Both the position numbers and the translations under genes were made by a program. Below are positions 24,084-51,891 of a DNA stretch of 64,000 bases, piece by piece. The stretch covers positions 2,363 through 66,362 of the forward strand of contig CAZNFQ010000002.1 in the NCBI GenBank assembly GCA_964571965.1, written 5' to 3'. This DNA comes from an uncultured bacterium. Lineage in GTDB: Bacteria > Fermentibacterota > Fermentibacteria > Fermentibacterales > JCC-6. Every line of letters starts with the position of its first letter. Within the stretch, counting starts at the first letter, position 1. Below the pieces are notes generated by a model that saw only the letters and a program-made list of their open reading frames with translations, was not told where the DNA came from and made no database searches.

Positions 24084-24089
24084 AGAAAG

Positions 24090-24857
24090 GTGCTCCGAAT
24101 GACCAGAATCCTTGCTGTGGCCAATCAGAAGGGCGGAGTTGGCAAAACCACCACCGTGATCAATCTCAGCGCAAGCATTGCCGTACACGATAAAGACGTG
24201 CTGATAATAGATATGGATCCCCAGGCAAACGCCACCAGTGGAATAGGCTGCAAAGAGGCAAATGAGAATGGAGTACACGATTTTCTTGCCGGAAAATCTT
24301 CCTTCGAAGACTGCGTTTGGAAAACCGAACTTGAAGGGCTGCATATAATAAGAGGATCCCGGCACCTTGCGGGAACTGAAATAGAGCTTGCCTCTGAAGA
24401 GGGCAGAGAGCATTTCCTATCACAGGCATTGAGATCTGCGGATTTAAGCAGGTACGACTATGTTCTTGTGGATTGTCCTCCTTCACTGGGACTTTTGACG
24501 GTGAATGCCCTTGTTGCGGCCCACGGAGTACTAATTACCGTTCAAAGCGAGTACTACGCCCTTGAAGGACTGTCCCACCTTATGGATACCATAAAGAGGA
24601 TACGAGGGCACTGGAACAGGGAGTTATCCGTGTTCGGGGTAATACTCACCATGTACGACAAGAGACTTAAACTGAGCCGCGAGGTGGAAGAAGAGGCTGA
24701 TTCTCATTTGGGAAAGCTTCTTTTCAAAACCAGAATTCCAAGGAATGTACGCCTCAGTGAAGCGCCAAGTTTCGGAATGCCGGTGATCCTTTACGATGCA
24801 TATTCTTCCGGCGCAAAAAGCTACATGAGCCTGGCCAGAGAGGTGATGTCAAAATGA
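24090..24857 (+). CDS. parA: chromosome partitioning ATPase ParA/Soj
   Basis: Deviant Walker A KGGVGKTTT; 255 aa. Confidence 0.9.
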   Translation: MLRMTRILAVANQKGGVGKTTTVINLSASIAVHDKDVLIIDMDPQANATSGIGCKEANENGVHDFLAGKSSFEDCVWKTELEGLHIIRGSRHLAGTEIELASEEGREHFLSQALRSADLSRYDYVLVDCPPSLGLLTVNALVAAHGVLITVQSEYYALEGLSHLMDTIKRIRGHWNRELSVFGVILTMYDKRLKLSREVEEEADSHLGKLLFKTRIPRNVRLSEAPSFGMPVILYDAYSSGAKSYMSLAREVMSK

Positions 24858-33311: not shown

Positions 33312-33863
33312 ATGGAGTGGGTTCTGGGAGTTCTGGCAGGAATATCCCTCAGTGCCGCTTGCGGTTTCAGGGTATTCGTTCCCCTTCTGGTTATGAGCAT
33401 AGCTGCACAGACCGGACACCTGGTACCCGCTTCAGGGTTTCAGTGGCTGGGAAGCACACCGGCACTTGTCTGTTTCTCAGTTGCAACCGCCGTGGAGATA
33501 GCCGCATATTTCATTCCGGTTGTGAACAACCTCCTGGACACTGTGGCAACACCTGCGGCTGCTGTTGCAGGTACGGTTCTCACCGCATCCATGGTCGGAG
33601 AGGTTTCTCCCTGGTTCCGGTGGGTACTGGCGGCGGTAGCAGGAGGTTCCGTTGCCGGAGGAATACAGCTGGCAACGGTTTCCCTGAGATCCGCAGCGGC
33701 TCCGGTTGGAGGAAGCGGTGTGGTTTCCGCCCTTGAAGACGGCGCAGCGGTGGTTACTTCTGTTTTGGCTGTGGTTCTTCCTGTTCTTACGGCGATGATC
33801 CTTCTTGTGTTCGGAGTTTATGTAATGAGAAGGAAACAAAAAGTCCGGGCGGGGATAGAGTAA
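33312..33863 (+). CDS. DUF4126-like membrane protein
   Basis: 183 aa, Ala/Gly/Val-rich four-TM protein, GFRVFVPLLVMSIAAQTGHL; from memory of the family, not verified. Confidence 0.5.
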   Translation: MEWVLGVLAGISLSAACGFRVFVPLLVMSIAAQTGHLVPASGFQWLGSTPALVCFSVATAVEIAAYFIPVVNNLLDTVATPAAAVAGTVLTASMVGEVSPWFRWVLAAVAGGSVAGGIQLATVSLRSAAAPVGGSGVVSALEDGAAVVTSVLAVVLPVLTAMILLVFGVYVMRRKQKVRAGIE

Positions 33864-33888
33864 TGAGAAACATCAATATTCGATAGGA

Positions 33889-34476
33889 GTGGAAATGTTA
33901 TCAGTTTTCTTATCAGCGGTTCTTCTTTCCTATGCACCGGGAACCATAGTACTCAGCGAAATAATGTACAATCCGGACGGGCAGACCCTAGGTCTGGACG
34001 AGCATATGGAATGGTTCGAGTTATACAATGCGTCGGATGAGGGGCTGAACCTGGCCGGTATGATGATCTCCGACGGCAACAACCAGATATATCTGGGCCA
34101 CTATCTGCTGGCTCCCGGTGCATACGGAGTGGTTTGCGCCAATGACGCCTCCTTCAAATCCGTATATGGAAACGACGTCAGGCTGATCCCCTGGAGCGGA
34201 GAATGGACCAGACTTAGAAACTCAAGCGATGAACTGATCCTCTACGGAGAAGAGGGTACGGTTATGGAATCCGTTACCTACTACGACAGCTGGGGAGTCA
34301 ATGGAAGCGAACCGTCGCCGGCAGACGGCGACGGATCCTCTCTGGAGAGGATAGACTTCTCAGGACCCAACGACGAAACCAACTGGGCTCCCTCCAGGGA
34401 CTTCAACCACAATGATGACAACGGAGATCCGGTGTGCTGGGGAACCCCGGGAGCTGAAAACTCGGTGGCGGACTAG
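33889..34476 (+). CDS. secreted lamin-tail-domain (LTD) protein
   Basis: Signal-peptide-like N-terminus; LSEIMYNPDG...EWFELYN...LAPGAYGVVCAND... is the LTD signature. Stop TAG overlaps the convergent DUF4956 stop at a CTAG palindrome. Confidence 0.7.
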   Translation: MEMLSVFLSAVLLSYAPGTIVLSEIMYNPDGQTLGLDEHMEWFELYNASDEGLNLAGMMISDGNNQIYLGHYLLAPGAYGVVCANDASFKSVYGNDVRLIPWSGEWTRLRNSSDELILYGEEGTVMESVTYYDSWGVNGSEPSPADGDGSSLERIDFSGPNDETNWAPSRDFNHNDDNGDPVCWGTPGAENSVAD

Positions 34477-35165
34477 AACTCGCTGTCCTCCATGGAACTC
34501 ACAAGGCTTACCCTGTCTATGCCGGCGGTTCTTTCAAGGGTGCTCACAAGGCCGCCGGCGTTCACTCCTCTTTTCAGGGTTATATCGTAGGAGAGAACCA
34601 GGAACTGTCCCTCTCCCGAGGGCTCTATGTGGATAAGGGTTGATCTGGAGGTCTTTTCACTTATCAGTTTCGTATAAATTGCCTCAACTCCGGAATTCCT
34701 GTCGAACCTGAAACGGAGTACGTATTCACTGCGCATGTACGCTCCGAAATTCGTTTTGAACAGTACAAGCGCCACCCCTCCTATGAAAACCGATGAAACA
34801 GCTGTAAGGAGATAGTTGCCCGTTCCCGAGGCAATGCCTTCCGTGAGGGCGAAGAAAACAAAAGCTGTGTCTCTTGTATCTTTTATAACCGTTCTGAAAC
34901 GTACGATGGTAAGGGCGCCGACCAGTGCGAAGGCCCTTGCAAGGTTGCTTCCGATAACCATCATCACTGCACTGACCGTTATACACATGAGAACAAGGGT
35001 GACCACGAAATTCTGGGAGTATGTCAAACCCCTGTGTGTAGCCTTGTATATGATCCCGATCAGAAGTCCTGCGGCAAGAGCCAGAAATAGATTGATTATA
35101 AGTTCCGCAGGAGAGTACCCCAGCATCTCGTTTCCGGTATTCATCCACTGGCTCAGTGATGGCAA
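34473..35165 (-). CDS. DUF4956-domain membrane protein
   Basis: 230 aa; four N-terminal TM helices with the ALVGALTIVRFRT motif and a soluble C-terminal domain; last gene of the CotH/VTC operon. Confidence 0.65.
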   Translation of the reverse strand: MPSLSQWMNTGNEMLGYSPAELIINLFLALAAGLLIGIIYKATHRGLTYSQNFVVTLVLMCITVSAVMMVIGSNLARAFALVGALTIVRFRTVIKDTRDTAFVFFALTEGIASGTGNYLLTAVSSVFIGGVALVLFKTNFGAYMRSEYVLRFRFDRNSGVEAIYTKLISEKTSRSTLIHIEPSGEGQFLVLSYDITLKRGVNAGGLVSTLERTAGIDRVSLVSSMEDSEF

Positions 35166-35944
35166 GCTTTGCTCCTCTCAACGAGTCGGTTGATCCTGCT
35201 GCCTGTATTGCCCAGGTAAACAGCTTCAACGGCTCTCTGGAATTTCGAGCAGGAGACCCTTTCAAGCCCCAGCTCTCTGATTATTCTCTGAAACCAGAAG
35301 GGAATCCGATAACGGAACTTTATTTCAACGATTCCCCCTCTCGGTATTATCTCTTCGGGATTGCCCCGGGGCAAGCCCAGGCGGGAGGCCTGGAAAGCGC
35401 TTGAGGCATCGTCGATGGTTGCCCTGAAATCGGGATTGGAAACATCCTCCCAGGCGGCCCTGTTGTAATCGGTGATCACACTTGGAGAAAGCCTGTATCT
35501 GAACGACTGGGCAATGAACCTTTCAGCAACGTTATTGCCCTGGTAGTCGGATGCCAGAAGATCTCTCAGTCTCCAGGTGCCACCGGTAAGGCCCTCAGAA
35601 AACTCCTGGTGGGGAAGCTTCACCCGGTGCTTGATGACCAGGGCGCCGTCCCTGCCTTTGAGCTCCAGGTAAAGAGGGTCTTCGAACCCCCGGGCAATCT
35701 GGGAATATGCTCTGAGTCTGTACTTGAAACGCTTTTCATGACCGTTTCTCTTTTCGTGGAACCATCTCATGTCCGGAGAGTCAAAGTAGACACTTCGAAT
35801 GGGATAGTACCCGTTGTCCCGGCAGTGAACGTCACGTGACAGGTGCCTGTCCAGTTCCGCGGCCACGATTTTCAGGGAGTTGTCAGAAAGAATGTACTTG
35901 AACTCGTACCTGTAGAAATGCAGGTGTTCGGGCACTGATGTCAT
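35153..35944 (-). CDS. VTC-domain protein (polyphosphate-polymerase-like, CYTH/triphosphate-tunnel fold)
   Basis: 263 aa; RYEFKYILSDNSLKIVAAEL...YYPIRSVYFDSPDMRWFHEKRNGHEKRFKYRLRAY...LYLELKGRDGALVIKHRVKL matches the bacterial VTC (Vtc4-like catalytic tunnel) domain; overlaps DUF4956 by 13 nt. Confidence 0.75.
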   Translation of the reverse strand: MTSVPEHLHFYRYEFKYILSDNSLKIVAAELDRHLSRDVHCRDNGYYPIRSVYFDSPDMRWFHEKRNGHEKRFKYRLRAYSQIARGFEDPLYLELKGRDGALVIKHRVKLPHQEFSEGLTGGTWRLRDLLASDYQGNNVAERFIAQSFRYRLSPSVITDYNRAAWEDVSNPDFRATIDDASSAFQASRLGLPRGNPEEIIPRGGIVEIKFRYRIPFWFQRIIRELGLERVSCSKFQRAVEAVYLGNTGSRINRLVERSKACHH

Positions 35945-37005
35945 CAGAACCTGAATCCTGCTTCCAGCACTATATCGGTATAATCCTCCGAGGAATTGAA
36001 TTCTTCCACGGTGTTCTTGACACCTCCAAAGCGTATTCTTGTGTTCTCGGTGGGATAAACAGCTCCCATTATGGAAATTCTTCTGTCCATCCAGTCCAGA
36101 TCGGTATCCGGCTTCGCTTCGTCAAATCCCAGGGAGATTGAAACAGTTCTTATTGTCTGAACGTTCCATGGGTGGTAATTGAAGGTTACCGCACCCCAGT
36201 AGCCCAGGAACCGGGGAGGATCTTCACCGGCGAGCACTTCACTCAGCTCCCAGTTGTCTCCTGTGGACAGCTCTGCGTAAATCTCGGCGCCGTACCAGTT
36301 ATTGAATTCATGTTCAAAGGAAAGATCGCCGGAAAAGGCAAAAAGCCTGGCGCTTGAGATATAGCCGTCCGGTTCGGTCTGGTCGGCCATGCCCTTTCTG
36401 TGGGAAACCGCCGAAAGCCCAAGGGTAAGGTCAGCAGGCAGTATTTCCGCGGTACCCCTGAAGGAGTAAAGCAGTTCACTGTCCTCTCTCTCTTCTGCCC
36501 TGGCATCTCCGTTGAAGACCCCTGCAGTGCCCCGGAGTTCGAGAACGTTAGAGACGGGTAACTGGATACGGGCATCGAATCCCAGGTCTCTGCCGCTGTA
36601 TGTGAGGTCTTCGCGTAGCTCATAAACAAGAGGACGCTCAAAGAGGGGAAGATCCCATGTGCTCAGGTCTCCTCCCAGAAGAGTTGCCCTTCTGAACAAA
36701 CCGAACCGGCCCCTGGCAGATCCCAGAGGTTCCCACTCCACAAGTGCGTCCTTCAGAAAAATTTCATTGGGTCTGAACTCCAGTTTCAGCTCCGCCTGAA
36801 GGTTGCCGGTGATCCGGGCTGCAGTTTCCATCCCTGCCCGGCGTATGGAGAATTCCCTGGAGGGAACGGCATTGTAACCGCCGAACTCCTCGTATCTGGC
36901 ATCGAGATAACCTTCCAGGGTAAACTCCTCGCAGACAGGATTTTCAACATCGATGGCGGCAAATGATATGGCAAAACAAAACAAGACGCACATAGTGAAT
37001 TTCAT
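35944..37005 (-). CDS. outer-membrane beta-barrel protein (porin-like), hypothetical
   Basis: Signal peptide MKFTMCVLFCFAISFAA; alternating amphipathic beta-strands; C-terminal ...LEAGFRF ending in aromatic Phe. 1-nt overlaps with both neighbours. Confidence 0.55.
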   Translation of the reverse strand: MKFTMCVLFCFAISFAAIDVENPVCEEFTLEGYLDARYEEFGGYNAVPSREFSIRRAGMETAARITGNLQAELKLEFRPNEIFLKDALVEWEPLGSARGRFGLFRRATLLGGDLSTWDLPLFERPLVYELREDLTYSGRDLGFDARIQLPVSNVLELRGTAGVFNGDARAEEREDSELLYSFRGTAEILPADLTLGLSAVSHRKGMADQTEPDGYISSARLFAFSGDLSFEHEFNNWYGAEIYAELSTGDNWELSEVLAGEDPPRFLGYWGAVTFNYHPWNVQTIRTVSISLGFDEAKPDTDLDWMDRRISIMGAVYPTENTRIRFGGVKNTVEEFNSSEDYTDIVLEAGFRF

Positions 37006-39455
37006 TACTGATCCTCCTGCAAAACAGTGAGACGAACTGAGTCTGAATCCGTACTTGATCTCAGATAAAGAATATACACACCTGAAGGAAGGGTTCCAGT
37101 GAAGTCAGCGGTAACCGTTCCCGAAGGGGTGGGCGGCAGATCGATCCTGGACATTACCCTGCCGCACATGTCGAACAGAACCGCCTCCACAGGCATTGAA
37201 GACGTTTCGTAGAAAAAGCTGAAAGAACCTGAGCACGGGTTGGGAGAAGCCAGCCTTACACAGGTTGCAGGGAGATTGGAAGGCCATCCCGGATTAGGAG
37301 CACCCGGCGTACCCGGCGGTTCAGCGGATACCCAGCTGAAAGGAGATGAAACCGGCGATTGAGGTGAGCCCAGATACATTATTCCAGTTTCTGCTCCCGG
37401 CCAGGAGCAGTTCCAGCCCATGGAAAAGTTACAGTCTCCGGTATTGCTGAACAGGAAGAGGGAGTCGGATTCAGAAGCCAGACTGAAATCGAGAAAAGCC
37501 GGATCCAACCCTGCAAATTCCCTCTGGGGGTTGTCGCAGACCACCAGATAGCTTCCGGGAAGAAGACAGGTTCCCTCGTCGAAAAGAGAAGTATTCATTC
37601 CGGCATCCATGAGGAACCATCCGGAGAGATCCACCTGATTCTGACCCGGGTTGTAGAGCTCTATCCAGTCGTCTCCGCCTCCGCGGCAGATCTCGCTTGG
37701 AATAACGATCTGATCCGGTTGTGGAAGGGTATCGCCTGTGCCGATGTTCCAGGTGTGCATTTCATGCCAGGAAGGATCGTTCAGTGTAAGCGGAGTACCT
37801 GCGGGATATGGTGTTCCAGCGTCTCCGAATAACCGCTCCCCGCAGAAGGATCCTGCCAGCCGGGCATCGTTCGTAAGGTAGAAGGTTTCACCGGCTTCAA
37901 CGAGAACAGACTCCGGGAAGAATACCGTTCCCGAGGGCATTCCCACGTAAAAAGAGCATAGACTTAAGTCCTGCGTGTGATCTGCGTTGTTGGTTACAGG
38001 GAGTATCCAGAGGTTTTCCCCGCACCAGAGGGGAGTGCCCGGGGAGAACTGCTCCGGAACAAGGGGAGCAAGGGCCATCCTGGCCCCGGGAGCCGGTGAC
38101 GGCCTGGCAAAATTTTCCCTGAGGCACCAGGAAGGATAGGAAACAGGGAAACTACAAGGGGCGATCCGCGGACAGAAGGCCATTCTTACACTGTATGTCC
38201 CAGGGGGAACATCTATGGTGTATTCGTATTCACCCTTTTCCTCTTCTTCCAGGTAGTGCCATTCTTCGTCTTCTCCGTCGAATGACAGCAGAAGAATCAC
38301 TCCCTCTGAGGCAATATCTCCTGTTTCAAGTTCCAACTCCACAGATGTTTCCATGTCGAGGCAGGAAGAAATTTCATAGTCCTCTATTGGCGTGGCGGGA
38401 TAGTCCAGATACACTTCCGAAAGATAGGCTGCCCGGGCTTCGATATCTTCAGAGAGGAATGAGCAGATGGAATCGAACTGTGAGACGGAGTATTCGTAGA
38501 AGGGGTCCTGCGCCAGTTCAGATCTTATTTCGAGCCGCAGCGAGTCGATTATTCCTGGGTATTCGTCTGCCATGATATCGGCACACTCCGCTATCAGGGT
38601 ATTGAGAAGCTGAACGTTGTCCCAGGACGCAAGCAGAGATCTTGCGGCGCCGAAGTAGCCGATGTCGCCGAGGCTGTGTTTCTCAACCCAGTCGGGGATG
38701 TACTCTCCCGTCCACGCATTGCCGAACGTGGCGTCCCGGTCCCAGGGGTAAATGTGCCAGCGGTCCTGCCAGCTGTGGAGGTAGATATTCTTGATTATGC
38801 CGTCTCTGTCGGATATTGCGGTGTTCACCGCGAAGAGGGCTATGAATTCGTCGGTTTCCAGGGAAGAGACATCTCCCCGGAAAGCATCTTCGATCAGTTG
38901 AAGCAGCAGTTGTGAATAGGGCTCACTGTCCACCTTGGGTTCGAATCCGGCAATTCCCAGGGTATCGGAGTACTGACAAATGAGCCTCGCGGCAACGTCG
39001 GTGCTCTTGAACAAGGGGCCGAAGCCTGTTCCGTTCCTCTGGTAGAATCGTCTGTCAATCCGCTCAACCCTCTCATATACTCCCATATTCGTTCCATTTA
39101 TGGAAAGGGACACGAATTCAGTTTCCGGTGCCGGATAACCAAGTTTTCTCGTCAGCAGAAGGCCAAGGGTGTTCCGCATGAGGGAAGGATCGCGGAACTG
39201 GGCATTCAGTAGTATGTGGTCTCCGCAGGGGAAGATCTCGTCTTCCTCAAGTCTTATATGGAAACTCTTTTTCGCAAGCCAAAGGCTGGTGCCGCCTCTG
39301 AATGCAAGGGTTCCTCCTGCAACCAGGGTATCCAGGAAAACCGTTGCCGGAATCTCAAGTTCGTCCTGAAAGTGATCGTAAAGATATGCGAGATCACCGG
39401 GATCCACAGTTACGGAATAGTGCGGCAGCACCGAAAGAATTACCAGAAAAATCAT
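37005..39455 (-). CDS. CotH-kinase-like protein with inserted lamin-tail domain and C-terminal T9SS sorting domain
   Basis: 816 aa. CotH motifs FRGGTSLWLAKKSFHIRL, INGTNMGVYERVERIDRRF, NIYLHSWQDRWHIYPWDRDATFGN. LTD SEICRGGGDDWIELYNPGQNQVDLSGWFL...LPGSYLVVCDN. C-terminal GVYILYLRSSTDSDSVRLTVLQ resembles Por_Secre_tail. Confidence 0.8.
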   Translation of the reverse strand: MIFLVILSVLPHYSVTVDPGDLAYLYDHFQDELEIPATVFLDTLVAGGTLAFRGGTSLWLAKKSFHIRLEEDEIFPCGDHILLNAQFRDPSLMRNTLGLLLTRKLGYPAPETEFVSLSINGTNMGVYERVERIDRRFYQRNGTGFGPLFKSTDVAARLICQYSDTLGIAGFEPKVDSEPYSQLLLQLIEDAFRGDVSSLETDEFIALFAVNTAISDRDGIIKNIYLHSWQDRWHIYPWDRDATFGNAWTGEYIPDWVEKHSLGDIGYFGAARSLLASWDNVQLLNTLIAECADIMADEYPGIIDSLRLEIRSELAQDPFYEYSVSQFDSICSFLSEDIEARAAYLSEVYLDYPATPIEDYEISSCLDMETSVELELETGDIASEGVILLLSFDGEDEEWHYLEEEEKGEYEYTIDVPPGTYSVRMAFCPRIAPCSFPVSYPSWCLRENFARPSPAPGARMALAPLVPEQFSPGTPLWCGENLWILPVTNNADHTQDLSLCSFYVGMPSGTVFFPESVLVEAGETFYLTNDARLAGSFCGERLFGDAGTPYPAGTPLTLNDPSWHEMHTWNIGTGDTLPQPDQIVIPSEICRGGGDDWIELYNPGQNQVDLSGWFLMDAGMNTSLFDEGTCLLPGSYLVVCDNPQREFAGLDPAFLDFSLASESDSLFLFSNTGDCNFSMGWNCSWPGAETGIMYLGSPQSPVSSPFSWVSAEPPGTPGAPNPGWPSNLPATCVRLASPNPCSGSFSFFYETSSMPVEAVLFDMCGRVMSRIDLPPTPSGTVTADFTGTLPSGVYILYLRSSTDSDSVRLTVLQEDQ

Positions 39456-39477
39456 TGCTGAACGCTTTCATGTTCTT

Positions 39478-41934
39478 TCACTGATCATCCCTTAATATGG
39501 TTAAGCAAGCTGAATCCCAACCCGATCCAGACCTCAGAGATACAATATACAACCCCGACGGAAGAGTTCCAGAGAAGTCTGCCGATAGGGTACCCTCACA
39601 GGAAGCCGGCAGGGGCAGCTCAGATATAACTCTTCCGCAGATGTCGTAGAGAATCAGCTGAGCGGTTTCAGATGAGGTTTCGTATGAGAGAGAGAAGGCT
39701 CCTGAGCAGGGGTTCTCTGATACAAGGCGCAAACGGGTGAGCCCTGAAGGCTGAGACCAACCGGGATTGGGAAGGCCGGGAGTACCGGGAGGCTCCGCAG
39801 AGGCCCAGCTGAATGGAGAGGAGACAGGAAAAACAGGAGACTTCAAATACATTATTCCAGACTCATATCCCGGCCAGAACTCAGTCCAGTTCAAAGCAAA
39901 TACCAGTTTTCCCAGGCTGTCATACAGCCAGAGAGAGTCAGTTTCACGATTAAGAGACATCTCAAGTATTTCCGCCTCAATCCCATGACAGTAGCCTTCA
40001 GGATTTTCACAGACAACAAGATATTCTCCTGGTTGGAGAGTAAGACCATCCGAAAGGAATGAAGCGTTTCTTTCAGAATCAATCAGATAGAAGCCTGACA
40101 GCTCAGCAGGGTTATCACCGGCATTGAACAGTTCAATCCAGTCGTGTTCACCAGCTCTGCAAATTTCCGTTGGGATGATGCAGAGATCAGGAAGAGACAG
40201 AGTGTCCGTGTCTGTAATCATCCATGAACTCATTTCATGCCAGGATGGGTCACAGAGGAAAAGGCTGCAGTTTACAGGGCAGGGGGATCCTGCATCTCCG
40301 AATACTCTGCCCGGAAACAGGTTTTCAGCCAGTCCGGAGTTGTTCGTAAGATAAAAAGTTTCCTCAGGAGCCACCACAACTGATTCAGGCAGAAAAACAG
40401 TCCCCGGCACCGGATATGTTCTGAATGAGCAGAGACTCAGGTCCTGTGAGAAATCAGCGGTATTACTTACCGGCAGTACCCAGAGGTTTTCCCCGCACCA
40501 TACCGGGGTACCTGGCAATAGGAATTCGGGCCTGAGGGGAGCAAGGGCTATCCTTGCTCCTGGAGCAGGTACAGGTCTTATCCGGTTTCCCATAAAAGAC
40601 CAGGAAGGGTAGTACACCGGCAGAAAGCAGGGTTTGATCCTGGGTCCGAAAACAACCTGTACACTGTAGGCGCCATGGGGAACATTTAGAGTGTAAGAGT
40701 ATGCTCCACCTGGCTCTTCAGGAAGGAAGCAGGAAAATTCATCGCCTCTGTCAATGGAGAAGAGAAGCATTACTCCGTGGGAATCACCGCCCAGAAGTTC
40801 CAGTTCCATTTGAACCTGATTTCCCATGTTCAGACAGTCACCGATCAGGAAATTTCCAATTCTCGAAGCGGGATCTGCCAGATATACTCCCGGAAGAAAG
40901 GAAGCCCGTGCTTCTATGTCATGGGAGAGAACTGCGCAGATGGAATCAAACTGAACCGGTGAAAATTCATAATAGGGATCATTAGCTATCTCGCTCCTTA
41001 GTTCAATTCTCAAAGAATCAATTATATGGGGGAATTGCAGGGCCATTATTTCTGCAGAGACTTCCATGAGATCGTTGAAAAGAACAATGTTCTCCTGTAG
41101 TTCGAGGAGGGGTCTGCCTGCTCCAAATCGGCCTATATCACCCATGTATACCGATTCTTCCCACCCGGGGATGTACTCGCCGGGAGAATTCCCGAAGGAT
41201 GCATCACGATCCCAGGGGTAGACATGCCAGCGGTTGCAGAAGCGATGAAGAAAGATGTTCTTGACTATGCCGTCGCGGTTGGCTATTGCGGTATTAACGG
41301 CGAAAAGGGCTATGAACTCCTCAGTTTCCAGGGAAGATACGTCTCCGGCAAAGCAATTCTCTATGAGTTCAAGAAGCTCAAGACGGTATGGATCGCTGTC
41401 TCTTTTGGGTTCAAGGCCGTGTATCCCGGATCTATCCGAATATTGGCATACAATTCTGCCAAGGGGTTCTATGCTTTTAAAGATGGGGCCCCACCCAAGA
41501 CCGTTTCGCTGAAAAAACTCTCTGTCTATGCGCTCGATCCTTTCATAAATTCCCATACTGCTGCCATTCAGGGAAAGAGTAACAAACTCGGTGATGGGTG
41601 CGGGGTACCCCAGTTCTCTGGTAAGAAGATGACCAAGGGTGTTTCTCATGAAAGACGGGTCCAGGGACTGGGCATTCAATAGAATATTCCCGGAACAATC
41701 GGGTGGGTTGTTTTCACAAATACGTATGTGCCAGCTTTTTTTCGGAAGATACAGGCTGGCTCCTCCTCTTATGGACAGGGTACCTTCCAATACCAGCGAA
41801 TCCGTTGAGATCAGCGCCGGGATTTCAATATCTTCTTCGAGATTATCATAGAGGTATGCCAGCTGTACTGGATCTGTTGTCAGGGAATAGTGGGGCAGCG
41901 CATGCAGCAGCACCAGAAAGAATATATAATTCAT
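39478..41934 (-). CDS. CotH-kinase-like protein with lamin-tail domain and C-terminal T9SS sorting domain (tandem paralog)
   Basis: 818 aa; same architecture and roughly half identical to the downstream gene (IRGGASLYLPKKSWHIRI; NIFLHRFCNRWHVYPWDRDASFGN; TEICRAGEHDWIELFNAGDNPAELSGFYL; C-terminal GLYIVSLRSGSGWDSACLTILRDDQ). Confidence 0.8.
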   Translation of the reverse strand: MNYIFFLVLLHALPHYSLTTDPVQLAYLYDNLEEDIEIPALISTDSLVLEGTLSIRGGASLYLPKKSWHIRICENNPPDCSGNILLNAQSLDPSFMRNTLGHLLTRELGYPAPITEFVTLSLNGSSMGIYERIERIDREFFQRNGLGWGPIFKSIEPLGRIVCQYSDRSGIHGLEPKRDSDPYRLELLELIENCFAGDVSSLETEEFIALFAVNTAIANRDGIVKNIFLHRFCNRWHVYPWDRDASFGNSPGEYIPGWEESVYMGDIGRFGAGRPLLELQENIVLFNDLMEVSAEIMALQFPHIIDSLRIELRSEIANDPYYEFSPVQFDSICAVLSHDIEARASFLPGVYLADPASRIGNFLIGDCLNMGNQVQMELELLGGDSHGVMLLFSIDRGDEFSCFLPEEPGGAYSYTLNVPHGAYSVQVVFGPRIKPCFLPVYYPSWSFMGNRIRPVPAPGARIALAPLRPEFLLPGTPVWCGENLWVLPVSNTADFSQDLSLCSFRTYPVPGTVFLPESVVVAPEETFYLTNNSGLAENLFPGRVFGDAGSPCPVNCSLFLCDPSWHEMSSWMITDTDTLSLPDLCIIPTEICRAGEHDWIELFNAGDNPAELSGFYLIDSERNASFLSDGLTLQPGEYLVVCENPEGYCHGIEAEILEMSLNRETDSLWLYDSLGKLVFALNWTEFWPGYESGIMYLKSPVFPVSSPFSWASAEPPGTPGLPNPGWSQPSGLTRLRLVSENPCSGAFSLSYETSSETAQLILYDICGRVISELPLPASCEGTLSADFSGTLPSGLYIVSLRSGSGWDSACLTILRDDQ

Positions 41935-41987
41935 ATGTTTCTATCATATCATATGCATGATAAAAAAGACAGCCTCTGGAGGCCTTA

Positions 41988-42410
41988 ATGAGTACCATTT
42001 CGCTTGTTGTAGTTCTGTTCCGGGGTTTTGTTCCAATAAACGGGTTTTCGGATTTGGATGCGCTGGCAGCACCCACGGACTTCGGATTTCTCGTTATAGA
42101 GTCGGGTAGCACCGAAGATGACACGGAGCTGATGTCAGCGGTTGAGAATGGCCTTGATGAAATGTCCGTTCCCGACAGTTGCGAAGTGAAGCTTTACACA
42201 ATTTCGCCGGGATCGGCAGGGTACCCCGAGGTGGCCCGTCTGGCAGGCAGTTACAACGGTTTTCCCGCGGTTGTAACCATTGTCGGACACTGCGGTTTCA
42301 TTGAGCTCGATACAGAATTCCTGGTTTCGGAGATGGAGGATGCCTGGTACAGGTGGGGCAGCGGGGGCTCCATGGGTATATGCAACCACTGCAGAAGGTG
42401 CAATCCATAA
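41988..42410 (+). CDS. hypothetical small secreted protein with Cys-rich C-terminus
   Basis: 140 aa; N-terminal hydrophobic segment; C-terminal CNHCRRCNP; no homolog I can name. Confidence 0.35.
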   Translation: MSTISLVVVLFRGFVPINGFSDLDALAAPTDFGFLVIESGSTEDDTELMSAVENGLDEMSVPDSCEVKLYTISPGSAGYPEVARLAGSYNGFPAVVTIVGHCGFIELDTEFLVSEMEDAWYRWGSGGSMGICNHCRRCNP

Positions 42411-42436
42411 AAAAAGGGGCGGCAACAGCCGCCCCT
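42408..42436 (-). terminator. rho-independent terminator for the rhamnose-isomerase-like gene
   Basis: GGGGCGGC-aaca-GCCGCCCC hairpin preceded on the plus strand by an A8 run, which is a U-run after the hairpin on the minus-strand transcript. Confidence 0.5.
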
Positions 42437-42447
42437 GAAACTGATTC

Positions 42448-43590
42448 CTACAACTCTGCAAAGGGATTCTCTGGAAGGTCGTTGTCTTTCCTCCAGGATT
42501 CCACCACAGGCCTGACATCTGTAACGAAGGCATCCCTGAGAATGTGGTTGGCTGCCACGGGATCCGGTTTCGTCTGGGCCTGCCTGAGTTCTTTCAGGTC
42601 AACCATTGAAGCCCTGGCAAGGGCATGCTGTGTGTTTTCCACTGCAGTGAGCAGGTTTTCCAGGGTTGGTCCCACCCTTGATTCAACTCTTAGCTGAATG
42701 CCGAGATCTTCAAGTGAGCAGAGGCCGGCATCTTCGGCCATGAGAATGTTAAGGAAAAGCCGGAAAAGGGCACCTGCGTCCAGTGAGCCTGCAGGAAGGG
42801 CCCCCATTCCAAGCCTGTTATCCGATATGGCAAGCCTTCCAAGCATCTTCTGATGAAGAAGGGAAATCGCAACGGATTCAAGACTTTCACCGGGGAGCAG
42901 CGAGCCTGTATCCAGAAGGAGTCTGCAGGAGTGAAGGGTTTCCCGGCACATCCAGGCTGCCGTTCCCCAGTCCGGTACTGCGGTTCCGCAGTAGGAAGGA
43001 CCGTAGGGTCTGAAGCTGAGGAGCATGCTCTCGCTTTTCCTGACCTTCATTCCTATCTGCCTGAGACCCTTGAGAATGCTGTCCAGCATGTCGACTGTGT
43101 TTTTCTCTCCGGGGGAATCGATGCCGTCGGGTATCCACAGTCCCAGCTGTCGGCACTTTACGTCCCTCATTACCTGAAGGGTGGAGATAACCTGGTTTAT
43201 GGAAGCCACACGCACCTCGGGGTAGGGGGAAGTCAGTGTGCCGTACATGAGCCTGTGGTTCAGAACTCCACGTTTTCTGGGAATGTGCAGGTCTGCCACC
43301 ATCGTTGCAGCGTTCAGCCCGTTCTTCTCAAGGGCGGCAAGCACGGTTTCCACGTCTTCCTTGCCCCTGACATCGCCGGGGCAGGAAAGAACGACATCGG
43401 ATCCCTTGCCTGTTATGGCTGCCACCTTGCCCAGGAGGTCAAGTTTATCGGTTACAGTTGTGGGATCCGTATCGGTTTTGTAAACCGCCCAGTTGCTGGC
43501 GGCTCTGGATACGGACCTGGTTGAAGCAATAAGATTAAGTTTTTGAAGTCTCTCCTTGACCGTTTTCAATTTATCACCGTTCCCCTTCAT
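42448..43590 (-). CDS. L-rhamnose isomerase-like sugar isomerase (xylose-isomerase-fold TIM barrel)
   Basis: 380 aa; several segments resemble my recollection of Pseudomonas stutzeri-type L-RhI (DKLDLLGKVAAITGKGSDVVLSCPGD, LHQKM, ILRDAFVTDVRPVVE); not verified. Confidence 0.5.
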   Translation of the reverse strand: MKGNGDKLKTVKERLQKLNLIASTRSVSRAASNWAVYKTDTDPTTVTDKLDLLGKVAAITGKGSDVVLSCPGDVRGKEDVETVLAALEKNGLNAATMVADLHIPRKRGVLNHRLMYGTLTSPYPEVRVASINQVISTLQVMRDVKCRQLGLWIPDGIDSPGEKNTVDMLDSILKGLRQIGMKVRKSESMLLSFRPYGPSYCGTAVPDWGTAAWMCRETLHSCRLLLDTGSLLPGESLESVAISLLHQKMLGRLAISDNRLGMGALPAGSLDAGALFRLFLNILMAEDAGLCSLEDLGIQLRVESRVGPTLENLLTAVENTQHALARASMVDLKELRQAQTKPDPVAANHILRDAFVTDVRPVVESWRKDNDLPENPFAEL

Positions 43591-49608: not shown

Positions 49609-51891
49609 CTAGCGGAGAACCATTGCCTGAGAGGAAACGGTTCCGTCCGTTGTTGTGAGGCGCACGAAGTAAACACCGCTTGAGATGTTCTCCGTGGACC
49701 AGTTAACGGAGTGGTTGCCTGCGGCAACTTCACCGTTAACAAGGGTCTGCACCGAACGGCCGGCAAGGTCGAAGACCTGCACCATTGCGTGCCCGGTAAC
49801 CGGTGTGGAGAAGTTCACCGCGGCAGAGCCGACTACGGGGTTGGCCGCAGGGGCGATGCCAAGGGTGAAGGTCTCTACTCCGGCTGTGGCTTCGTCGATG
49901 GATGTGGGATAGACATCGATCGTAGCAGCAACGGGGCAGTAGTTCTGAAGCCTGGCTCCGGTGTAGAGAGTTGTTGAGCTGGCGGGAACTGTCACGTTGA
50001 AACTTGCCTGACCGCTGCCGTTGGTGGTTGCGGTTTCATAGAAAGTGGCTGCATCTGAAATGCCTTCGATACCGTCTGAAAGGGCAACTGTTGCACCGCT
50101 CACAGGTGAGCCGCCTGCTGTAACCGTCATGGTAACTGTCTGTGTTCCGGGGTTAACCATTCCGGGGTTGCAGACTATCTGAAGCATTTCAGGGTTGGAA
50201 ACGTCGTTGGTGAAGATTTCCATTGCAGGGTCGCCGAACCAGATGTACATCTTGGCGTTGGTCTCGCCGTATGTGCCCTGGTCCGCTATTGCCTCGAGGG
50301 TAGCGTAGTTTAGCGCTTCTACAATATTCACATGACCAAAGTCATAAAGACCCTTGAAGGTTTCCTTCATGTAAACATGATTGGCAAGGGTGTAGGACGG
50401 GTCGGTGGCGGCGAGGTTGCCGCTTGAACCGTGCTCGTCCCAGGCGTAGCTCTCGGCAAGACATTCCGTGCTGGTTCCGTATTCACCGCAGAGACATGCA
50501 TAGGTGAAGGTGGGAGGCAGGAAGGTGTTGGTAAGCGCCTGAATGTTGGTCTTGTTCCAGCCCGGGCTCCATGCCCAGTAGGTGGTGTCTCCGTGACCTC
50601 TGTATGCCACCACACCGATTCCGTCATTGTACCAGCCGGAAACATCAGCCGCGGTTCCGCCCTCGGGAGGATAGACCTTGTAGAAGGTCATGTCCACGGA
50701 GTAGTCGTAGGCTGCGGTTTCGTTGCAGCACTGGGTGTACTTGCCCGGGTACTGTTCTTCGTGGGCGGCAAGAACCGCTGTGCTGGGGATGATTCCCGTG
50801 GTGTTCGCGTCGGCGAAGGAGTACTGGTAGTAGCCGTCGATGATCTTAGAAACCTGAAGCTCGATCTGGTCGGCGTTTCCTGTGAGACGGCCCACCGCAA
50901 GTTCAGGTATGTAGTCGGAGCCTGAGAGGCAGGCGTAGTAATAGTCGCCGATGAATGAACCGTAGTTGTAGCTGGGAAGGGCTGCGTGGTCACCGGCGAT
51001 AAGGGCGAACCTTGTGATGCTGGTGTCGTAGTGGTCGGTTATTGCGGCTTTGATAACACCGGCGGAGGAGCCGCTGGCGAGAACTTCCACTGCTGTTTCG
51101 TAGCCGATTCCCTGATAGAATTCCACAAGGGGCATTACTGCATCAAGGTTGGCGGCAGTGGTTACGAAAACGTATGCGGCTGCTTCTGCGTCTGTGGGGG
51201 CGGATGCGGCGGCATCAACCATATCGTAGTTGATGAGCACTCTGGAGCCCGCGCTTCTTACGAATTCCGTTGAAGAGAAGGCAAGGGCGTTGGGAGAACC
51301 ATTGAAGTCAATTCTTACCCTGATGGATCTGGCAGCCTGAAGCTCGCCGGTTTCAGGGTTGTACCTGAATGGGTTGAAGTGGAGCCTGTCGGTGTTTATT
51401 CCACCCATGATGGCAGGATTCACTGTTTCTGCCCAGTTGCCGGGGAAGAACTCGTTGGAATCGTATACGTCCTCAATCTGCTCGAAGGGGTAGGGATTGT
51501 GGGGCATGTCGATTTCCGGGGTCTGTCTGGGAACGAGATTGATGTTGCTGTAGGAAGTGTAGTCTACATTTTCCACTGTAACAACGGCACTGGTTCCGAA
51601 GGGAAGAGCGAACATCTGGGGTACCGAGGGCACCTCGGGAAGTCCCACTCTTGTCTGGGAGTAGAAGTCTGGAAGTTCGATGCAGTCCCAGGTGGAGCCA
51701 CCTGCAACGGTTTTCCCCAGCCAGAAGCCGGGAACGGTTACATCAACAACGATGTGTCCAGCATCTGATTCAACCAGATTCACGCTGCAGATATCTCCCG
51801 GCTGGCCGCCGAATGACTGCCAGTCGAAATTTCCATGCAGAGCGAATGCAGCCGTTGCAAATGCAGCGGCTAAAAGAAAAGCTCTCTTCAT
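49609..51891 (-). CDS. gingipain-like C25-family cysteine peptidase with C-terminal T9SS sorting domain
   Basis: 760 aa; signal peptide MKRAFLLAAAFATAAFA; central C25 catalytic-domain-like region (VAYRGHGDTTYWA..., ...CLCGEYG...); C-terminal GVYFVRLTTTDGTVSSQAMVLR Por-type tail. Confidence 0.65.
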   Translation of the reverse strand: MKRAFLLAAAFATAAFALHGNFDWQSFGGQPGDICSVNLVESDAGHIVVDVTVPGFWLGKTVAGGSTWDCIELPDFYSQTRVGLPEVPSVPQMFALPFGTSAVVTVENVDYTSYSNINLVPRQTPEIDMPHNPYPFEQIEDVYDSNEFFPGNWAETVNPAIMGGINTDRLHFNPFRYNPETGELQAARSIRVRIDFNGSPNALAFSSTEFVRSAGSRVLINYDMVDAAASAPTDAEAAAYVFVTTAANLDAVMPLVEFYQGIGYETAVEVLASGSSAGVIKAAITDHYDTSITRFALIAGDHAALPSYNYGSFIGDYYYACLSGSDYIPELAVGRLTGNADQIELQVSKIIDGYYQYSFADANTTGIIPSTAVLAAHEEQYPGKYTQCCNETAAYDYSVDMTFYKVYPPEGGTAADVSGWYNDGIGVVAYRGHGDTTYWAWSPGWNKTNIQALTNTFLPPTFTYACLCGEYGTSTECLAESYAWDEHGSSGNLAATDPSYTLANHVYMKETFKGLYDFGHVNIVEALNYATLEAIADQGTYGETNAKMYIWFGDPAMEIFTNDVSNPEMLQIVCNPGMVNPGTQTVTMTVTAGGSPVSGATVALSDGIEGISDAATFYETATTNGSGQASFNVTVPASSTTLYTGARLQNYCPVAATIDVYPTSIDEATAGVETFTLGIAPAANPVVGSAAVNFSTPVTGHAMVQVFDLAGRSVQTLVNGEVAAGNHSVNWSTENISSGVYFVRLTTTDGTVSSQAMVLR

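What the first reader, a model, noticed from the sequence alone, without database searches (positions are those of the whole stretch)
34473..41934. Five-gene operon joining two secreted CotH-kinase/lamin-tail proteins to an OM barrel, a VTC polyphosphate-polymerase-like protein and a DUF4956 membrane protein
The five minus-strand genes (cotH-like 2, cotH-like 1, OM beta-barrel, VTC, DUF4956) have 1-22 nt gaps or overlaps, so they are almost certainly one transcript. Each component is poorly characterised in bacteria. CotH is an atypical protein kinase known from spore coats. The VTC domain is the catalytic tunnel of the eukaryotic vacuolar polyphosphate polymerase. DUF4956 is an uncharacterised four-TM protein. 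The co-occurrence suggests a cell-envelope system making or moving a phosphorylated polymer (polyP?), with outward-facing atypical kinases that might use it or ATP. No part of this system has a demonstrated function that I know of, and the T9SS-exported kinase pair is unusual.
Basis: partly seen in the sequence, partly recalled or inferred. Interest (0 to 1): 0.88.

Follow-up and report, generated by a model that had tools for sequence, protein, structure and literature searches.

The report
Surface kinases with polyphosphate-export operon
A tightly packed five-gene operon in an uncultured Fermentibacteria genome joins two exported CotH-type kinases to a phosphate-porin-like outer-membrane channel, a cytoplasmic enzyme related to the yeast polyphosphate polymerase and a membrane partner; the same core set recurs across many bacterial phyla, its function is untested, and the layout suggests a route for carrying phosphate-bond energy out of the cell.

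Summary
Five minus-strand genes (34473-41934) are joined by a 22-nt gap, two 1-nt overlaps and one 13-nt overlap. They encode CotH+LTD+T9SS-tail (twice), an outer-membrane barrel, a VTC-domain protein and a DUF4956 protein.

New detail:
- The barrel is a distant OprP/OprO-type phosphate porin.
- DUF4956 has an MgtC-like build: five helices plus a cytoplasmic ACT-like domain.
- Both CotH copies keep the catalytic residues.
- The VTC protein keeps the residues that align to the Vtc4 tunnel.

In 80 genome loci, VTC sits directly upstream of DUF4956 in essentially every locus with enough flank, across at least six phyla. A CotH gene lies in the locus in 39/44 Fermentibacteria loci and 21/24 loci from other phyla. 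The porin sits next to VTC in 43/44 Fermentibacteria loci and, as a canonical Porin_O_P, in one gammaproteobacterium. In both lineages CotH has no inner-membrane anchor.

The CotH-VTC-DUF4956 trio is already in the literature as an accessory set beside Gram-positive Pel loci, with mutant phenotypes but no biochemistry.

Best reading (inferred, about 0.4): VTC and DUF4956 make and export polyphosphate, the porin passes it, and surface CotH kinases use it. I class this as a new diderm variant of a known but uncharacterised module.

The parts
39478..41934 (-). CotH2, 818 aa: short hydrophobic leader, CotH kinase domain, middle region, lamin-tail domain (LTD), T9SS type-A C-terminal tail. First gene of the operon.
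   Evidence: Pfam CotH 3.9e-27, LTD 4.3e-12, Por_Secre_tail 21 bits, below the cut-off. TIGR04183 19.8 bits against 23. K66, D221, N226, D242 and D244 are kept. 58% amino-acid identity to CotH1.
41056..41778 (-). CotH2 kinase domain, aa 53-293 by Pfam.
39886..40158 (-). CotH2 LTD, aa 593-683.
39520..39717 (-). CotH2 T9SS-type C-terminal tail, aa 740-805.
37005..39455 (-). CotH1, 816 aa, same architecture as CotH2. Tandem paralogue.
   Evidence: Pfam CotH 5.3e-34, LTD 8.3e-13. TIGR04183 21.0 bits against 23. phmmer to B. cereus CotH 5jd9 gives 8e-23 over aa 8-347. K63, D218, N223, D239 and D241 are kept. Direct repeats at about 2470-nt spacing, 71-76% identical.
38421..39308 (-). CotH1 kinase domain, aa 50-345.
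37437..37697 (-). CotH1 LTD, aa 587-673.
37029..37247 (-). CotH1 T9SS-type C-terminal tail, aa 737-809.
35944..37005 (-). Outer-membrane 16-strand porin, 353 aa: signal peptide, C-terminal ...GFRF. Distant relative of the phosphate-selective porins OprP/OprO (Porin_O_P).
35153..35944 (-). Cytoplasmic VTC-domain protein, 263 aa, no signal peptide: a triphosphate-tunnel enzyme related to the catalytic domain of yeast Vtc4.
   Evidence: Pfam VTC 4.6e-33, full length. Family profile hits Vtc4 3g3q at 3.1e-14. Invariant residues: R12, E14, K16, S51, Y53, D55, K74, R76, R78, E94, K96, K105, R107, Y160, R162, R174, T176, D178, E207, K209, S233, K234.
34473..35165 (-). DUF4956 inner-membrane protein, 230 aa: five helices (aa 19-138) with a very conserved RFRTVxKDTRD loop, then a cytoplasmic ACT-like domain. 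MgtC-like build.
33889..34476 (+). Small LTD-only protein, 195 aa, hydrophobic leader. Convergent with DUF4956, with 3' ends overlapping by 4 nt. Candidate accessory part or substrate.
   Evidence: Pfam LTD 2.6e-14. Found convergent downstream in 28 of 42 Fermentibacteria loci with enough flank.
41935..41987 (-). 53-nt space between the CotH2 start and the divergent 140-aa ORF. The only non-coding room for the operon's promoter (inferred).
   Evidence: The sigma-70 consensus scan is uninformative here.
42415..42436 (-). Strong terminator-like hairpin (9 pairs, 8 G-C, T-run) ending the upstream 380-aa gene. Marks the upstream boundary of the transcription unit.

Best explanation
This is an envelope-spanning phosphoryl relay.

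Proposed steps:
1. The cytoplasmic VTC-domain enzyme takes the gamma-phosphate of ATP and builds a polyphosphate, or short oligophosphate, chain.
2. It feeds the chain to its obligate membrane partner DUF4956. An oligomer of DUF4956, with a conserved ring of cytoplasm-facing Arg/Lys residues, passes the chain across the inner membrane. This mirrors how the yeast VTC complex couples synthesis to translocation.
3. The OprP-like porin lets the anionic phosphate species cross the outer membrane.
4. The two CotH kinases, exported by Sec and the type IX secretion system and held at the cell surface, use it to phosphorylate an extracellular target (a glycan or a surface protein). The chain could be the phosphoryl donor or an activator. 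The LTD domains and the neighbouring LTD-only protein would act as binding or scaffold modules.

Shown here: gene content, operon packing, intact catalytic motifs, predicted compartments of each part, and conservation of the gene set.

Inferred: that the VTC product is polyphosphate, that DUF4956 conducts it, that the porin is selective for it, and that CotH consumes it.
For: - Operon packing with 1-nt and 13-nt overlaps and Shine-Dalgarno sites.
- The VTC family profile matches the Vtc4 catalytic domain at 3e-14. The invariant R76/R78, K96 and Y160/R162 align to the Vtc4 motifs RlR, ErK and YnR.
- VTC lies directly upstream of DUF4956 in essentially all loci with enough flank: 44/46 Fermentibacteria loci and 28/30 from Desulfobacterota, Gamma- and Alphaproteobacteria, Planctomycetota, Verrucomicrobiota and Campylobacterota. 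Three of the four misses (L040, L041, L077) are ORF-boundary artefacts; the fourth (L083) has only about 1 kb of upstream flank, and L020, which the count did not flag, keeps only a VTC remnant.
- A CotH gene is in the same locus in 39/44 and 21/24 loci (Pfam confirmation).
- The three core parts sit in three compartments in every lineage. VTC has no signal peptide. DUF4956 has five hydrophobic helices whose basic loops obey the positive-inside rule when the ACT domain is cytoplasmic. CotH has a leader plus T9SS tail here, an N-terminal membrane anchor in other phyla, and a signal peptide in L068.
- An extracytoplasmic kinase has no ATP pool, which gives a reason for the linkage (inference).
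- The barrel is OprP-like. It sits next to VTC in 43/44 Fermentibacteria loci.
- A canonical Porin_O_P (1.9e-66) occupies the same position in an unrelated gammaproteobacterium. Its CotH proteins are also soluble and secreted rather than membrane-anchored.
- Both CotH copies keep the Asp residues equivalent to B. subtilis D228 and D251, whose mutation inactivates the kinase (PMC7821199).
- Deleting the DUF4956 and CotH homologues in S. intermedius gives the same type of phenotype (PMC12345266).
Against: - There is no biochemical result for any bacterial VTC-domain or DUF4956 protein in the literature I could search.
- The passages I read in PMC12345266 report phenotypes for the DUF4956 and CotH mutants but not for the VTC mutant.
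- All bacterial homologues have an invariant Glu14 (RYEFK) where Vtc4 has Thr (RQTTK). This resembles the ExExK motif of hydrolytic or cyclising CYTH enzymes.
- The C-terminal third of the domain could not be aligned to Vtc4.
- MgtC-like proteins are known as regulators, not channels (background knowledge).
- The window's porin does not reach the Pfam Porin_O_P threshold itself. It is net acidic, with 33 K/R against 59 D/E, so its anion selectivity is unproven.
- Porins conduct both ways, so uptake of phosphate is equally possible.
- Characterised CotH uses ATP.
- The T9SS tail scores are just below the curated cut-offs.
- The link between porin presence and unanchored CotH rests on only two lineages.
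Confidence: 0.4

Rival explanations
1. Surface-polymer regulation or modification without polyphosphate export. CotH phosphorylates exopolysaccharide-machinery proteins or matrix components using another donor. VTC and DUF4956 form a sensor or regulator: the ACT domain binds a metabolite, and the tunnel enzyme hydrolyses or senses a triphosphate. This pair tunes the process, as proposed for the Pel-linked copies.
For: - Outside Fermentibacteria the trio is embedded in glycan clusters: GT2, GT4, epimerases, MBOAT plus AlgX, dTDP-sugar isomerase.
- It lies next to pel operons in Gram-positives (PMC7112168, PMC12345266).
- DUF4956 has the build of MgtC, a known regulator, with an ACT-like domain.
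- Glu14 resembles CYTH-type chemistry.
Against: - It does not explain where an extracytoplasmic kinase gets its phosphoryl donor.
- It does not explain the phosphate-porin relative placed next to VTC in two unrelated lineages.
- The window has no adjacent glycan cluster. Its flanks are housekeeping genes, and the nearest glycosyltransferase is about 7 kb away.
Confidence: 0.2
2. Phosphate economy. VTC and DUF4956 deposit a periplasmic or surface polyphosphate store that serves as a phosphate and cation reserve, analogous to the yeast vacuole. The OprP-like porin imports phosphate to feed it. The CotH-LTD proteins bind, anchor or remodel the polymer rather than acting as kinases on other targets.
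For: - In yeast the VTC complex stores polyphosphate in a compartment (PMC10657179).
- OprP and OprO are phosphate and pyrophosphate uptake porins (PDB title of 2o4v, plus background knowledge).
- Some extra CotH paralogues in relatives have Ser in place of the catalytic Asp, so they may be non-catalytic binders.
Against: - Both CotH copies in the window keep the full catalytic set.
- In most phyla the trio occurs without any porin and inside glycan clusters.
- A storage function gives no reason for obligatory linkage to a kinase.
Confidence: 0.15
3. The VTC-domain protein is not a polymerase. It is a CYTH-like triphosphatase or nucleotide cyclase whose small-molecule product signals through the ACT domain of DUF4956. 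The porin and the CotH proteins are downstream effectors.
For: - Invariant Glu14 in an RxExK motif.
- The triphosphate-tunnel superfamily includes hydrolases and cyclases (background knowledge).
- ACT domains bind small ligands (hit descriptions).
Against: - Pfam assigns the protein to VTC, not CYTH, along the full profile.
- The best solved relatives are Vtc4, Vtc2 and Vtc3 only.
- The basic tunnel residues that align to Vtc4 are invariant.
Confidence: 0.1
4. The five genes are neighbours by chance or by shared transcription only, with no common function.
For: The flanking genes are unrelated housekeeping genes.
Against: - The same families stay together in more than 60 loci from several phyla, although gene order, copy number and flanks change.
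- The start and stop codons overlap.
Confidence: 0.02

Closest known systems
cotH / 'polyphosphate polymerase' / DUF4956 (/ DUF4832) accessory gene set beside Gram-positive pel operons. Example: Streptococcus intermedius SIR_1594, SIR_1593, SIR_1592 (PMC7112168, PMC12345266).
   Same: - The same three families: a secreted CotH, a VTC-domain protein, and a DUF4956 protein with an MgtC-like membrane domain plus ACT.
- They are contiguous.
- No biochemical function is known. The mutant phenotypes point to the cell surface.
   Different: - There are no pel genes here. The 2025 paper reported not finding the trio outside Pel loci, whereas I find it in many diderm phyla without Pel.
- This is a diderm organism, with an added OprP-like outer-membrane porin.
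- CotH carries LTD and a T9SS tail instead of FN3.
- There is no DUF4832 gene.
- The CotH gene is duplicated.
Yeast and protist VTC complex (Vtc4 catalytic subunit with Vtc1/2/3 membrane subunits).
   Same: - A triphosphate-tunnel catalytic domain of the same Pfam family, with the aligned basic residues kept.
- An obligate association with a membrane component.
- The catalytic domain is on the cytoplasmic side.
   Different: - No SPX domain.
- No VTC1-type transmembrane domain.
- The membrane partner is a separate, unrelated MgtC-like protein.
- Glu14 stands in place of the Vtc4 Thr.
- Polymerase activity is untested in any bacterial member.
Bacillus CotH spore-coat kinase (PDB 5jd9, 5jda).
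   Same: - The kinase domain aligns end to end at 8e-23.
- The Lys and the two catalytic Asp residues are kept.
   Different: - The organism is not a spore former.
- The protein is exported rather than acting in the mother-cell cytoplasm.
- It has about 470 extra residues: a middle region, LTD and a T9SS tail.
- It has different genomic partners.
Pseudomonas OprP / OprO phosphate- and pyrophosphate-selective porins (Pfam Porin_O_P).
   Same: - There is distant sequence kinship.
- It has a signal peptide and a terminal Phe.
   Different: - About 60 residues shorter.
- 16% identity.
- The window protein does not reach the family threshold.
- It is net acidic.
- It is encoded with a polyphosphate-polymerase homologue rather than in a Pho-type uptake context.
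MgtC / YhiD / SapB membrane proteins.
   Same: - Helical membrane domain followed by a cytoplasmic ACT-like domain.
- JGI names homologues 'YhiD'.
   Different: - No Pfam MgtC hit.
- A different conserved core motif.
- Always paired with VTC.

Membership tests
CotH kinase family (PF08757) | Sequence match above the curated threshold | tested here: met
   118.6 and 96 bits against a cut-off of 23.8. 8e-23 to the solved B. cereus CotH.
CotH kinase family (PF08757) | Catalytic Asp and metal-binding Asp (B. subtilis D228, D251) and the nucleotide-binding Lys | tested here: met
   CotH1 has K63, D218, N223, D239. CotH2 has K66, D221, N226, D242. The role of these residues is from PMC7821199.
CotH kinase family (PF08757) | Protein kinase activity | not testable with these tools
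   Needs an enzyme assay.
VTC domain / Vtc4-type polyphosphate polymerase (PF09359) | Sequence match above threshold along the whole domain | tested here: met
   115.2 bits against 23, profile positions 2-235 of 235. The family profile hits Vtc4 3g3q at 3.1e-14.
VTC domain / Vtc4-type polyphosphate polymerase (PF09359) | Basic tunnel residues aligned with Vtc4 (K in TTKY; RlR; ErK; YnR; R-x-s-l-D) | tested here: met
   K16, R76/R78, E94/K96, Y160/R162 and R174/D178 are invariant in 18 homologues and aligned to the Vtc4 motifs. Numbering of the yeast residues is from memory. The C-terminal residues could not be aligned.
VTC domain / Vtc4-type polyphosphate polymerase (PF09359) | SPX domain and VTC1-type transmembrane domain, as in eukaryotic VTC subunits | tested here: not met
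   The protein is 263 aa with only the VTC domain. It is a homologue of the catalytic domain, not a member of the eukaryotic VTC complex.
VTC domain / Vtc4-type polyphosphate polymerase (PF09359) | Polyphosphate synthesis from ATP | not testable with these tools
Glu14 in place of Thr is an unexplained difference.
DUF4956 (PF16316) | Sequence match above threshold | tested here: met
   48.8 bits against 30.6.
MgtC/SapB family | Sequence membership (Pfam MgtC) and five-helix plus ACT architecture | tested here: inconclusive
   [not shown]
Porin_O_P (PF07396, OprP/OprO) | Sequence match above threshold | tested here: not met
   The window protein has no Pfam hit even at E 10. 8 of 28 homologues hit, best 4.6e-7. 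hhalign to a canonical member gives 81% probability, E 1.2e-5, over the N-terminal 160 residues only.
Porin_O_P (PF07396, OprP/OprO) | 16-strand porin fold closest to OprP | tested here: met
   [not shown]
Porin_O_P (PF07396, OprP/OprO) | Arginine ladder / lysine cluster giving phosphate selectivity | tested here: inconclusive
   12 invariant or near-invariant Arg/Lys, including the RR at 55-56 that aligns to LRR of the canonical porin. The protein is net acidic, and residues could not be mapped onto OprP.
T9SS type A sorting domain (TIGR04183 / PF18962) | Sequence match above threshold at the extreme C-terminus | tested here: inconclusive
   21.0 and 19.8 bits against 23. 21 bits against 27. 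The tails align with the above-threshold CTD of the window's C25 peptidase, sharing the NP..G, D..GR and SG[VL]Y motifs.
Lamin tail domain (PF00932) | Sequence match above threshold | tested here: met
   49.1, 46.8 and 53.9 bits against 34.3 for CotH1, CotH2 and the small neighbour.
Known anti-phage defence systems (PADLOC) | Any component matching a defence model | tested here: not met
   0 hits for 8 proteins.

The most novel reading that the evidence does not exclude
Bacteria have a third, VTC-type polyphosphate synthase that is mechanically coupled to export through DUF4956. The exported polyphosphate is the phosphoryl donor that lets CotH-family kinases work outside the cytoplasm, where there is no ATP. 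In diderms with surface-exposed CotH, an OprP-like porin completes the conduit. This would be a previously unrecognised way of delivering phosphate-bond energy to the cell surface.
Probability: 0.25. Interest if true: 0.9.

Novelty: new variant of a known kind. Interest (0 to 1): 0.62.

Why it matters
Three open questions meet in this operon.

1. How can a secreted or surface kinase work in bacteria, when there is no ATP outside the inner membrane? Extracellular CotH proteins, for example cellulosomal ones, are an acknowledged puzzle (PMC12774918).
2. Bacterial polyphosphate synthesis is attributed to PPK1 and PPK2 (PMC10657179). An active VTC-type enzyme coupled to export would add a new route and a new cellular location.
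3. What do DUF4956 and MgtC-like membrane proteins do?

The Fermentibacteria and gammaproteobacterial versions add a phosphate-porin relative. That gives the hypothesis a concrete, testable path across both membranes.

The module is widespread. At least 378 of about 186,000 species representatives matched two strict peptide patterns. It is also linked to biofilm polysaccharide loci in streptococci, clostridia and bifidobacteria, so a mechanism worked out in any one host would transfer broadly.

Tried and rejected
- The search for related loci with the VTC alignment failed because no stretch was conserved enough. I used the DUF4956 alignment instead.
- phmmer of the VTC protein alone against PDB found nothing. 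The family profile was needed.
- A profile of only the C-terminal third of VTC did not reach Vtc4. The equivalence of E207/K209 and S233/K234 to Vtc4 residues therefore stays unverified.
- The barrel profile found nothing in PDB by sequence. Only fold comparison and Pfam scans of homologues placed it.
- Single-sequence phmmer with the window's CotH domain missed most CotH genes of other phyla. An iterated profile found them, and Pfam confirmed examples.
- PADLOC gave no hits, which excludes a known defence system.
- Rfam gave no hits over 33500-43000.
- The sigma-70 promoter and terminator scan was at or below shuffle expectation, apart from the upstream terminator. It says nothing about internal promoters in this phylum.
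- The afdb50 fold library was unavailable.
- The original CotH kinase paper (PNAS 2016) is not held. Residue roles were taken from PMC7821199.
- I considered a Pel-locus context and rejected it for this window. No pel or other exopolysaccharide synthase genes flank the operon.
- I did not run the 1.84-billion-protein representative search. It carries no genomic context and would not have changed the verdict.

Full report
OBSERVATION

- CotH2: 39478-41934, 818 aa.
- CotH1: 37005-39455, 816 aa.
- Barrel: 35944-37005, 353 aa.
- VTC: 35153-35944, 263 aa.
- DUF4956: 34473-35165, 230 aa, TTG start.

I read the junctions directly.
- CotH2 and CotH1 are separated by a 22-nt gap.
- CotH1 and the barrel share TAATG, with AGGAGG 7 nt upstream of the ATG.
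- The barrel and VTC share TGATG.
- VTC and DUF4956 overlap by 13 nt, with GAGAGGAG 6 nt before the TTG.
- The TTG start agrees with the N-termini of homologues.

A strong terminator-like hairpin at 42415-42436 closes the upstream 380-aa gene. A divergent 140-aa ORF leaves only 53 nt before the CotH2 start. At the other end, a convergent gene overlaps the DUF4956 stop by 4 nt. This has the layout of a single, translationally coupled unit. Transcripts themselves cannot be checked here.

DOMAIN ASSIGNMENTS

Pfam gives the following:
- CotH: 5.3e-34 and 3.9e-27.
- LTD: 8.3e-13 and 4.3e-12.
- VTC: 4.6e-33, along the full profile.
- DUF4956: 8.8e-13.

The T9SS sorting tail falls just below the curated cut-offs (21.0 and 19.8 bits against 23; 21 against 27). 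The two tails do align with the above-threshold tail of a C25 peptidase encoded at 49609-51891. They share the NP..G, D..GR and SG[VL]Y motifs.

CotH1 and CotH2 are 58% identical in protein and about 64% in DNA. They show up as direct repeats spaced about 2470 nt apart. The pair is therefore an old tandem duplication.

CotH1 aligns end to end with the solved B. cereus CotH at 8e-23. Both copies keep the Lys of KKSxH, the Asp and Asn of DGxxxN, and the Asp of WDxD. The two Asp residues correspond by spacing to B. subtilis D228 and D251, whose mutation inactivates the kinase (PMC7821199).

WHAT THE BARREL IS

The window protein has no Pfam or NCBIfam hit, even at E 10. Four other lines of evidence place it.
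- 8 of 28 homologues hit Porin_O_P, best 4.6e-7.
- An AlphaFold model (pLDDT 76.8) is a 16-strand porin with a signal peptide and a terminal Phe.
- hhalign to a canonical Porin_O_P gives 81% probability, E 1.2e-5.

I call it a distant OprP/OprO relative. Its selectivity is unproven, and it is net acidic.

WHAT DUF4956 IS

The core VMMVIGSNLARAFALVGALTIVRFRTVxKDTRDTAFVFFALTEGIAxGTGN is almost invariant from Fermentibacteria to Desulfobacterota. With the ACT domain placed in the cytoplasm, the positive-inside rule puts the RFRTVxKDTRD loop at the cytoplasmic face. This follows from the hydropathy and charge pattern and is an inference.

WHAT THE VTC PROTEIN IS

It has no signal peptide. The family profile reaches only Vtc4, Vtc2 and Vtc3 among solved structures, at 3.1e-14 for the Vtc4 catalytic domain. 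The invariant residues K16, R76/R78, E94/K96, K105/R107, Y160/R162 and R174/D178 align with the Vtc4 motifs TTKY, RlR, ErK, KaR, YnR and RisLD.

Two caveats apply. The bacterial family has an invariant Glu14 where Vtc4 has Thr. The C-terminal third could not be aligned to Vtc4.

ORGANISM AND CONTEXT

Named homologues come from Candidatus Fermentibacteria / Ca. Sabulitectum. The exact proteins exist, unnamed, on a 68.8-kb NCBI contig.

The flanks are housekeeping genes: YjeF, TsaD, pyruvate:ferredoxin oxidoreductase, acetate kinase and PTA. The window also contains the replication-origin gene cluster. There are no pel or other polysaccharide-synthase genes beside the operon.

SYNTENY

Three contig look-ups set the pattern.
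- A relative with 66% identical VTC has the same neighbourhood with a single CotH.
- A 44% relative has barrel-VTC-DUF4956-CotH-CotH, followed by two beta-helix proteins.
- A 35% relative has DUF4956, an unknown 345-aa gene, CotH+beta-helix, then VTC.

I then fetched 80 genome loci with the DUF4956 alignment. I scanned them with HMMs built from my own alignments and with an iterated CotH profile.

- VTC directly upstream of DUF4956: 44/46 Fermentibacteria-type loci and 28/30 from other phyla (Desulfobacterota, Gamma- and Alphaproteobacteria, Planctomycetota, Verrucomicrobiota, Campylobacterota). Three of the four misses (L040, L041, L077) are ORF-boundary artefacts visible. The fourth, L083, has only about 1 kb of upstream flank. 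L020, which the count did not flag, keeps only a VTC remnant.
- CotH gene in the locus: 39/44 and 21/24.
- Barrel next to VTC: 43/44 Fermentibacteria loci, and none of 25 elsewhere with this profile.
- Small LTD-only protein convergent downstream: 28/42 Fermentibacteria loci.

Locus L068, from an uncultured gammaproteobacterium, is the exception for the porin. It has a canonical Porin_O_P (Pfam 1.9e-66) in exactly that position. The order there is VTC, DUF4956, a dockerin protein and two 436-aa CotH proteins with signal peptides.

In the other phyla, CotH is about 940 aa. It carries an N-terminal membrane anchor about 70 residues before the kinase domain, and a C-terminal beta-helix. There the trio sits inside glycan clusters with GT2, GT4, epimerases, MBOAT plus AlgX and dTDP-sugar isomerase.

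Two conclusions follow.
- VTC-DUF4956 is an obligate pair, and CotH is its usual partner.
- The porin appears in the two sampled lineages where CotH has no inner-membrane anchor. That is only two lineages, so it is a lead rather than a result.

LITERATURE

The trio is not new as an association.
- Whitfield et al. described cotH, a 'polyphosphate polymerase', DUF4956 and DUF4832 as an accessory set contiguous with pelDEADAFG in streptococci and clostridia. A bifidobacterial variant also exists (PMC7112168).
- The 2025 mBio paper on S. intermedius reports reduced Pel and reduced aggregation in the SIR_1592 (DUF4956) and SIR_1594 (secreted CotH-FN3) mutants. It notes that SIR_1593 has a polyphosphate-polymerase domain. 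It states that the authors did not find the three-gene arrangement outside Pel loci (PMC12345266). My loci show it is common outside Pel loci.
- C. perfringens NELoc-2 carries VTC genes next to CotH (PMC2879425).
- In B. thetaiotaomicron, a DUF4956 gene is listed together with a DUF2490 gene (PMC10434189).
- Extracellular cellulosomal CotH is called functionally unexplained (PMC12774918).

I found no paper testing a bacterial VTC-domain or DUF4956 protein biochemically.

MECHANISM

Shown here:
- Three compartments: cytoplasmic VTC, inner-membrane DUF4956 and exported CotH.
- Intact catalytic motifs in VTC and in both CotH copies.
- Obligate VTC-DUF4956 pairing.
- An OprP-like outer-membrane channel.

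Inferred: VTC polymerises phosphate from ATP and hands the chain to a DUF4956 oligomer, as Vtc4 does with the VTC membrane subunits. The porin passes the anion across the outer membrane. Surface CotH uses it as donor or activator to phosphorylate an extracellular glycan or protein. LTD modules act as binders.

I put this at about 0.4. Rivals:
- A regulatory VTC-DUF4956 sensor, with CotH using another donor (0.2).
- A periplasmic or surface polyphosphate store with porin-mediated phosphate uptake (0.15).
- CYTH-like hydrolase or cyclase signalling (0.1).
- Chance adjacency (0.02).

The main points against the preferred reading are:
- There is no biochemistry at all.
- Glu14 differs from Vtc4.
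- MgtC relatives are known as regulators.
- The porin is net acidic.
- The passages I read report no phenotype for the streptococcal VTC mutant.

VERDICT

This is a diderm, T9SS-linked, porin-equipped variant of a known but uncharacterised CotH-VTC-DUF4956 module. It is worth attention because it lays out a concrete, testable path for polyphosphate across two membranes to an extracellular kinase. It is not unique to this genome.

Noticed in passing
window 10575-25702: The window contains the chromosomal replication-origin gene cluster. gyrA, gyrB, dnaN and dnaA are on the minus strand. They diverge from yidC, trmE, gidA, gidB, parA and parB on the plus strand. The cumulative GC-skew minimum lies near 12-16 kb. 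The CotH operon is therefore only about 17-24 kb from the origin.
   Followed up: partly
window 7006-10575 (-): A 1189-aa ORF between the asparaginase and gyrA genes has no Pfam hit at 1e-4.
   Followed up: no
window 33889-34476 (+): A 195-aa LTD-only protein with a hydrophobic leader and an acidic tail. It is convergent with DUF4956, with 3' ends overlapping by 4 nt. It is conserved in that position in 28 of 42 Fermentibacteria loci. It may be an accessory part or a substrate of the system.
   Followed up: partly
window 41988-42410 (+) and 42448-43590 (-): A divergent 140-aa ORF and an upstream 380-aa ORF have no significant Pfam match. Both are conserved next to the operon in the close Sabulitectum-type relatives only.
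   Followed up: partly
window 49609-51891 (-): A gingipain-like C25 peptidase with propeptide and an above-threshold T9SS C-terminal domain. This is independent evidence that the organism uses type IX secretion.
   Followed up: partly
L068 1686-9096: An uncultured gammaproteobacterium carries a canonical Porin_O_P (1.9e-66), then VTC, DUF4956, a dockerin-domain protein and two 436-aa signal-peptide CotH proteins. This is an independent porin-bearing version of the module.
   Followed up: yes
L020 1-1639: A second locus in the same MAG as L006 has the barrel followed by DUF4956. VTC is reduced to about 13 N-terminal codons (MKSTPEKLHFNRHEF...). This is a decayed duplicate or an assembly artefact.
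   Followed up: partly
L056-L086, directly upstream of CotH (e.g. L061 5087-6340): A fourth conserved family of about 370-400 aa sits immediately upstream of CotH in 20 non-Fermentibacteria loci. It has an N-terminal membrane helix, a helical TPR-like region and beta-sandwich repeats, and no Pfam hit. It is absent from the window.
   Followed up: partly
L001 13944-16187; L040 11361-14687; similar ORFs in L022-L052: Extra CotH paralogue classes occur in Fermentibacteria. One is about 740 aa. Another is about 1110 aa, with CotH, beta-helix, LTD and a FlgD-Ig-like tail. Both carry Ser in place of the catalytic Asp218 equivalent, so they may be pseudokinases.
   Followed up: partly
L062 9179-10639: A Planctomycetota locus has VTC-DUF4956 without any CotH within 10 kb. 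Its flanks hold a TPR/peptidase-MA protein, a sigma-54 activator and an MBOAT. It is one of the few exceptions to the trio.
   Followed up: partly
window 35153-35944 (-), residue 14: All 18 bacterial VTC homologues aligned have Glu in an RYEFK motif where yeast Vtc4 has Thr (RQTTK). The significance for chemistry (polymerase or hydrolase) is unknown.
   Followed up: no
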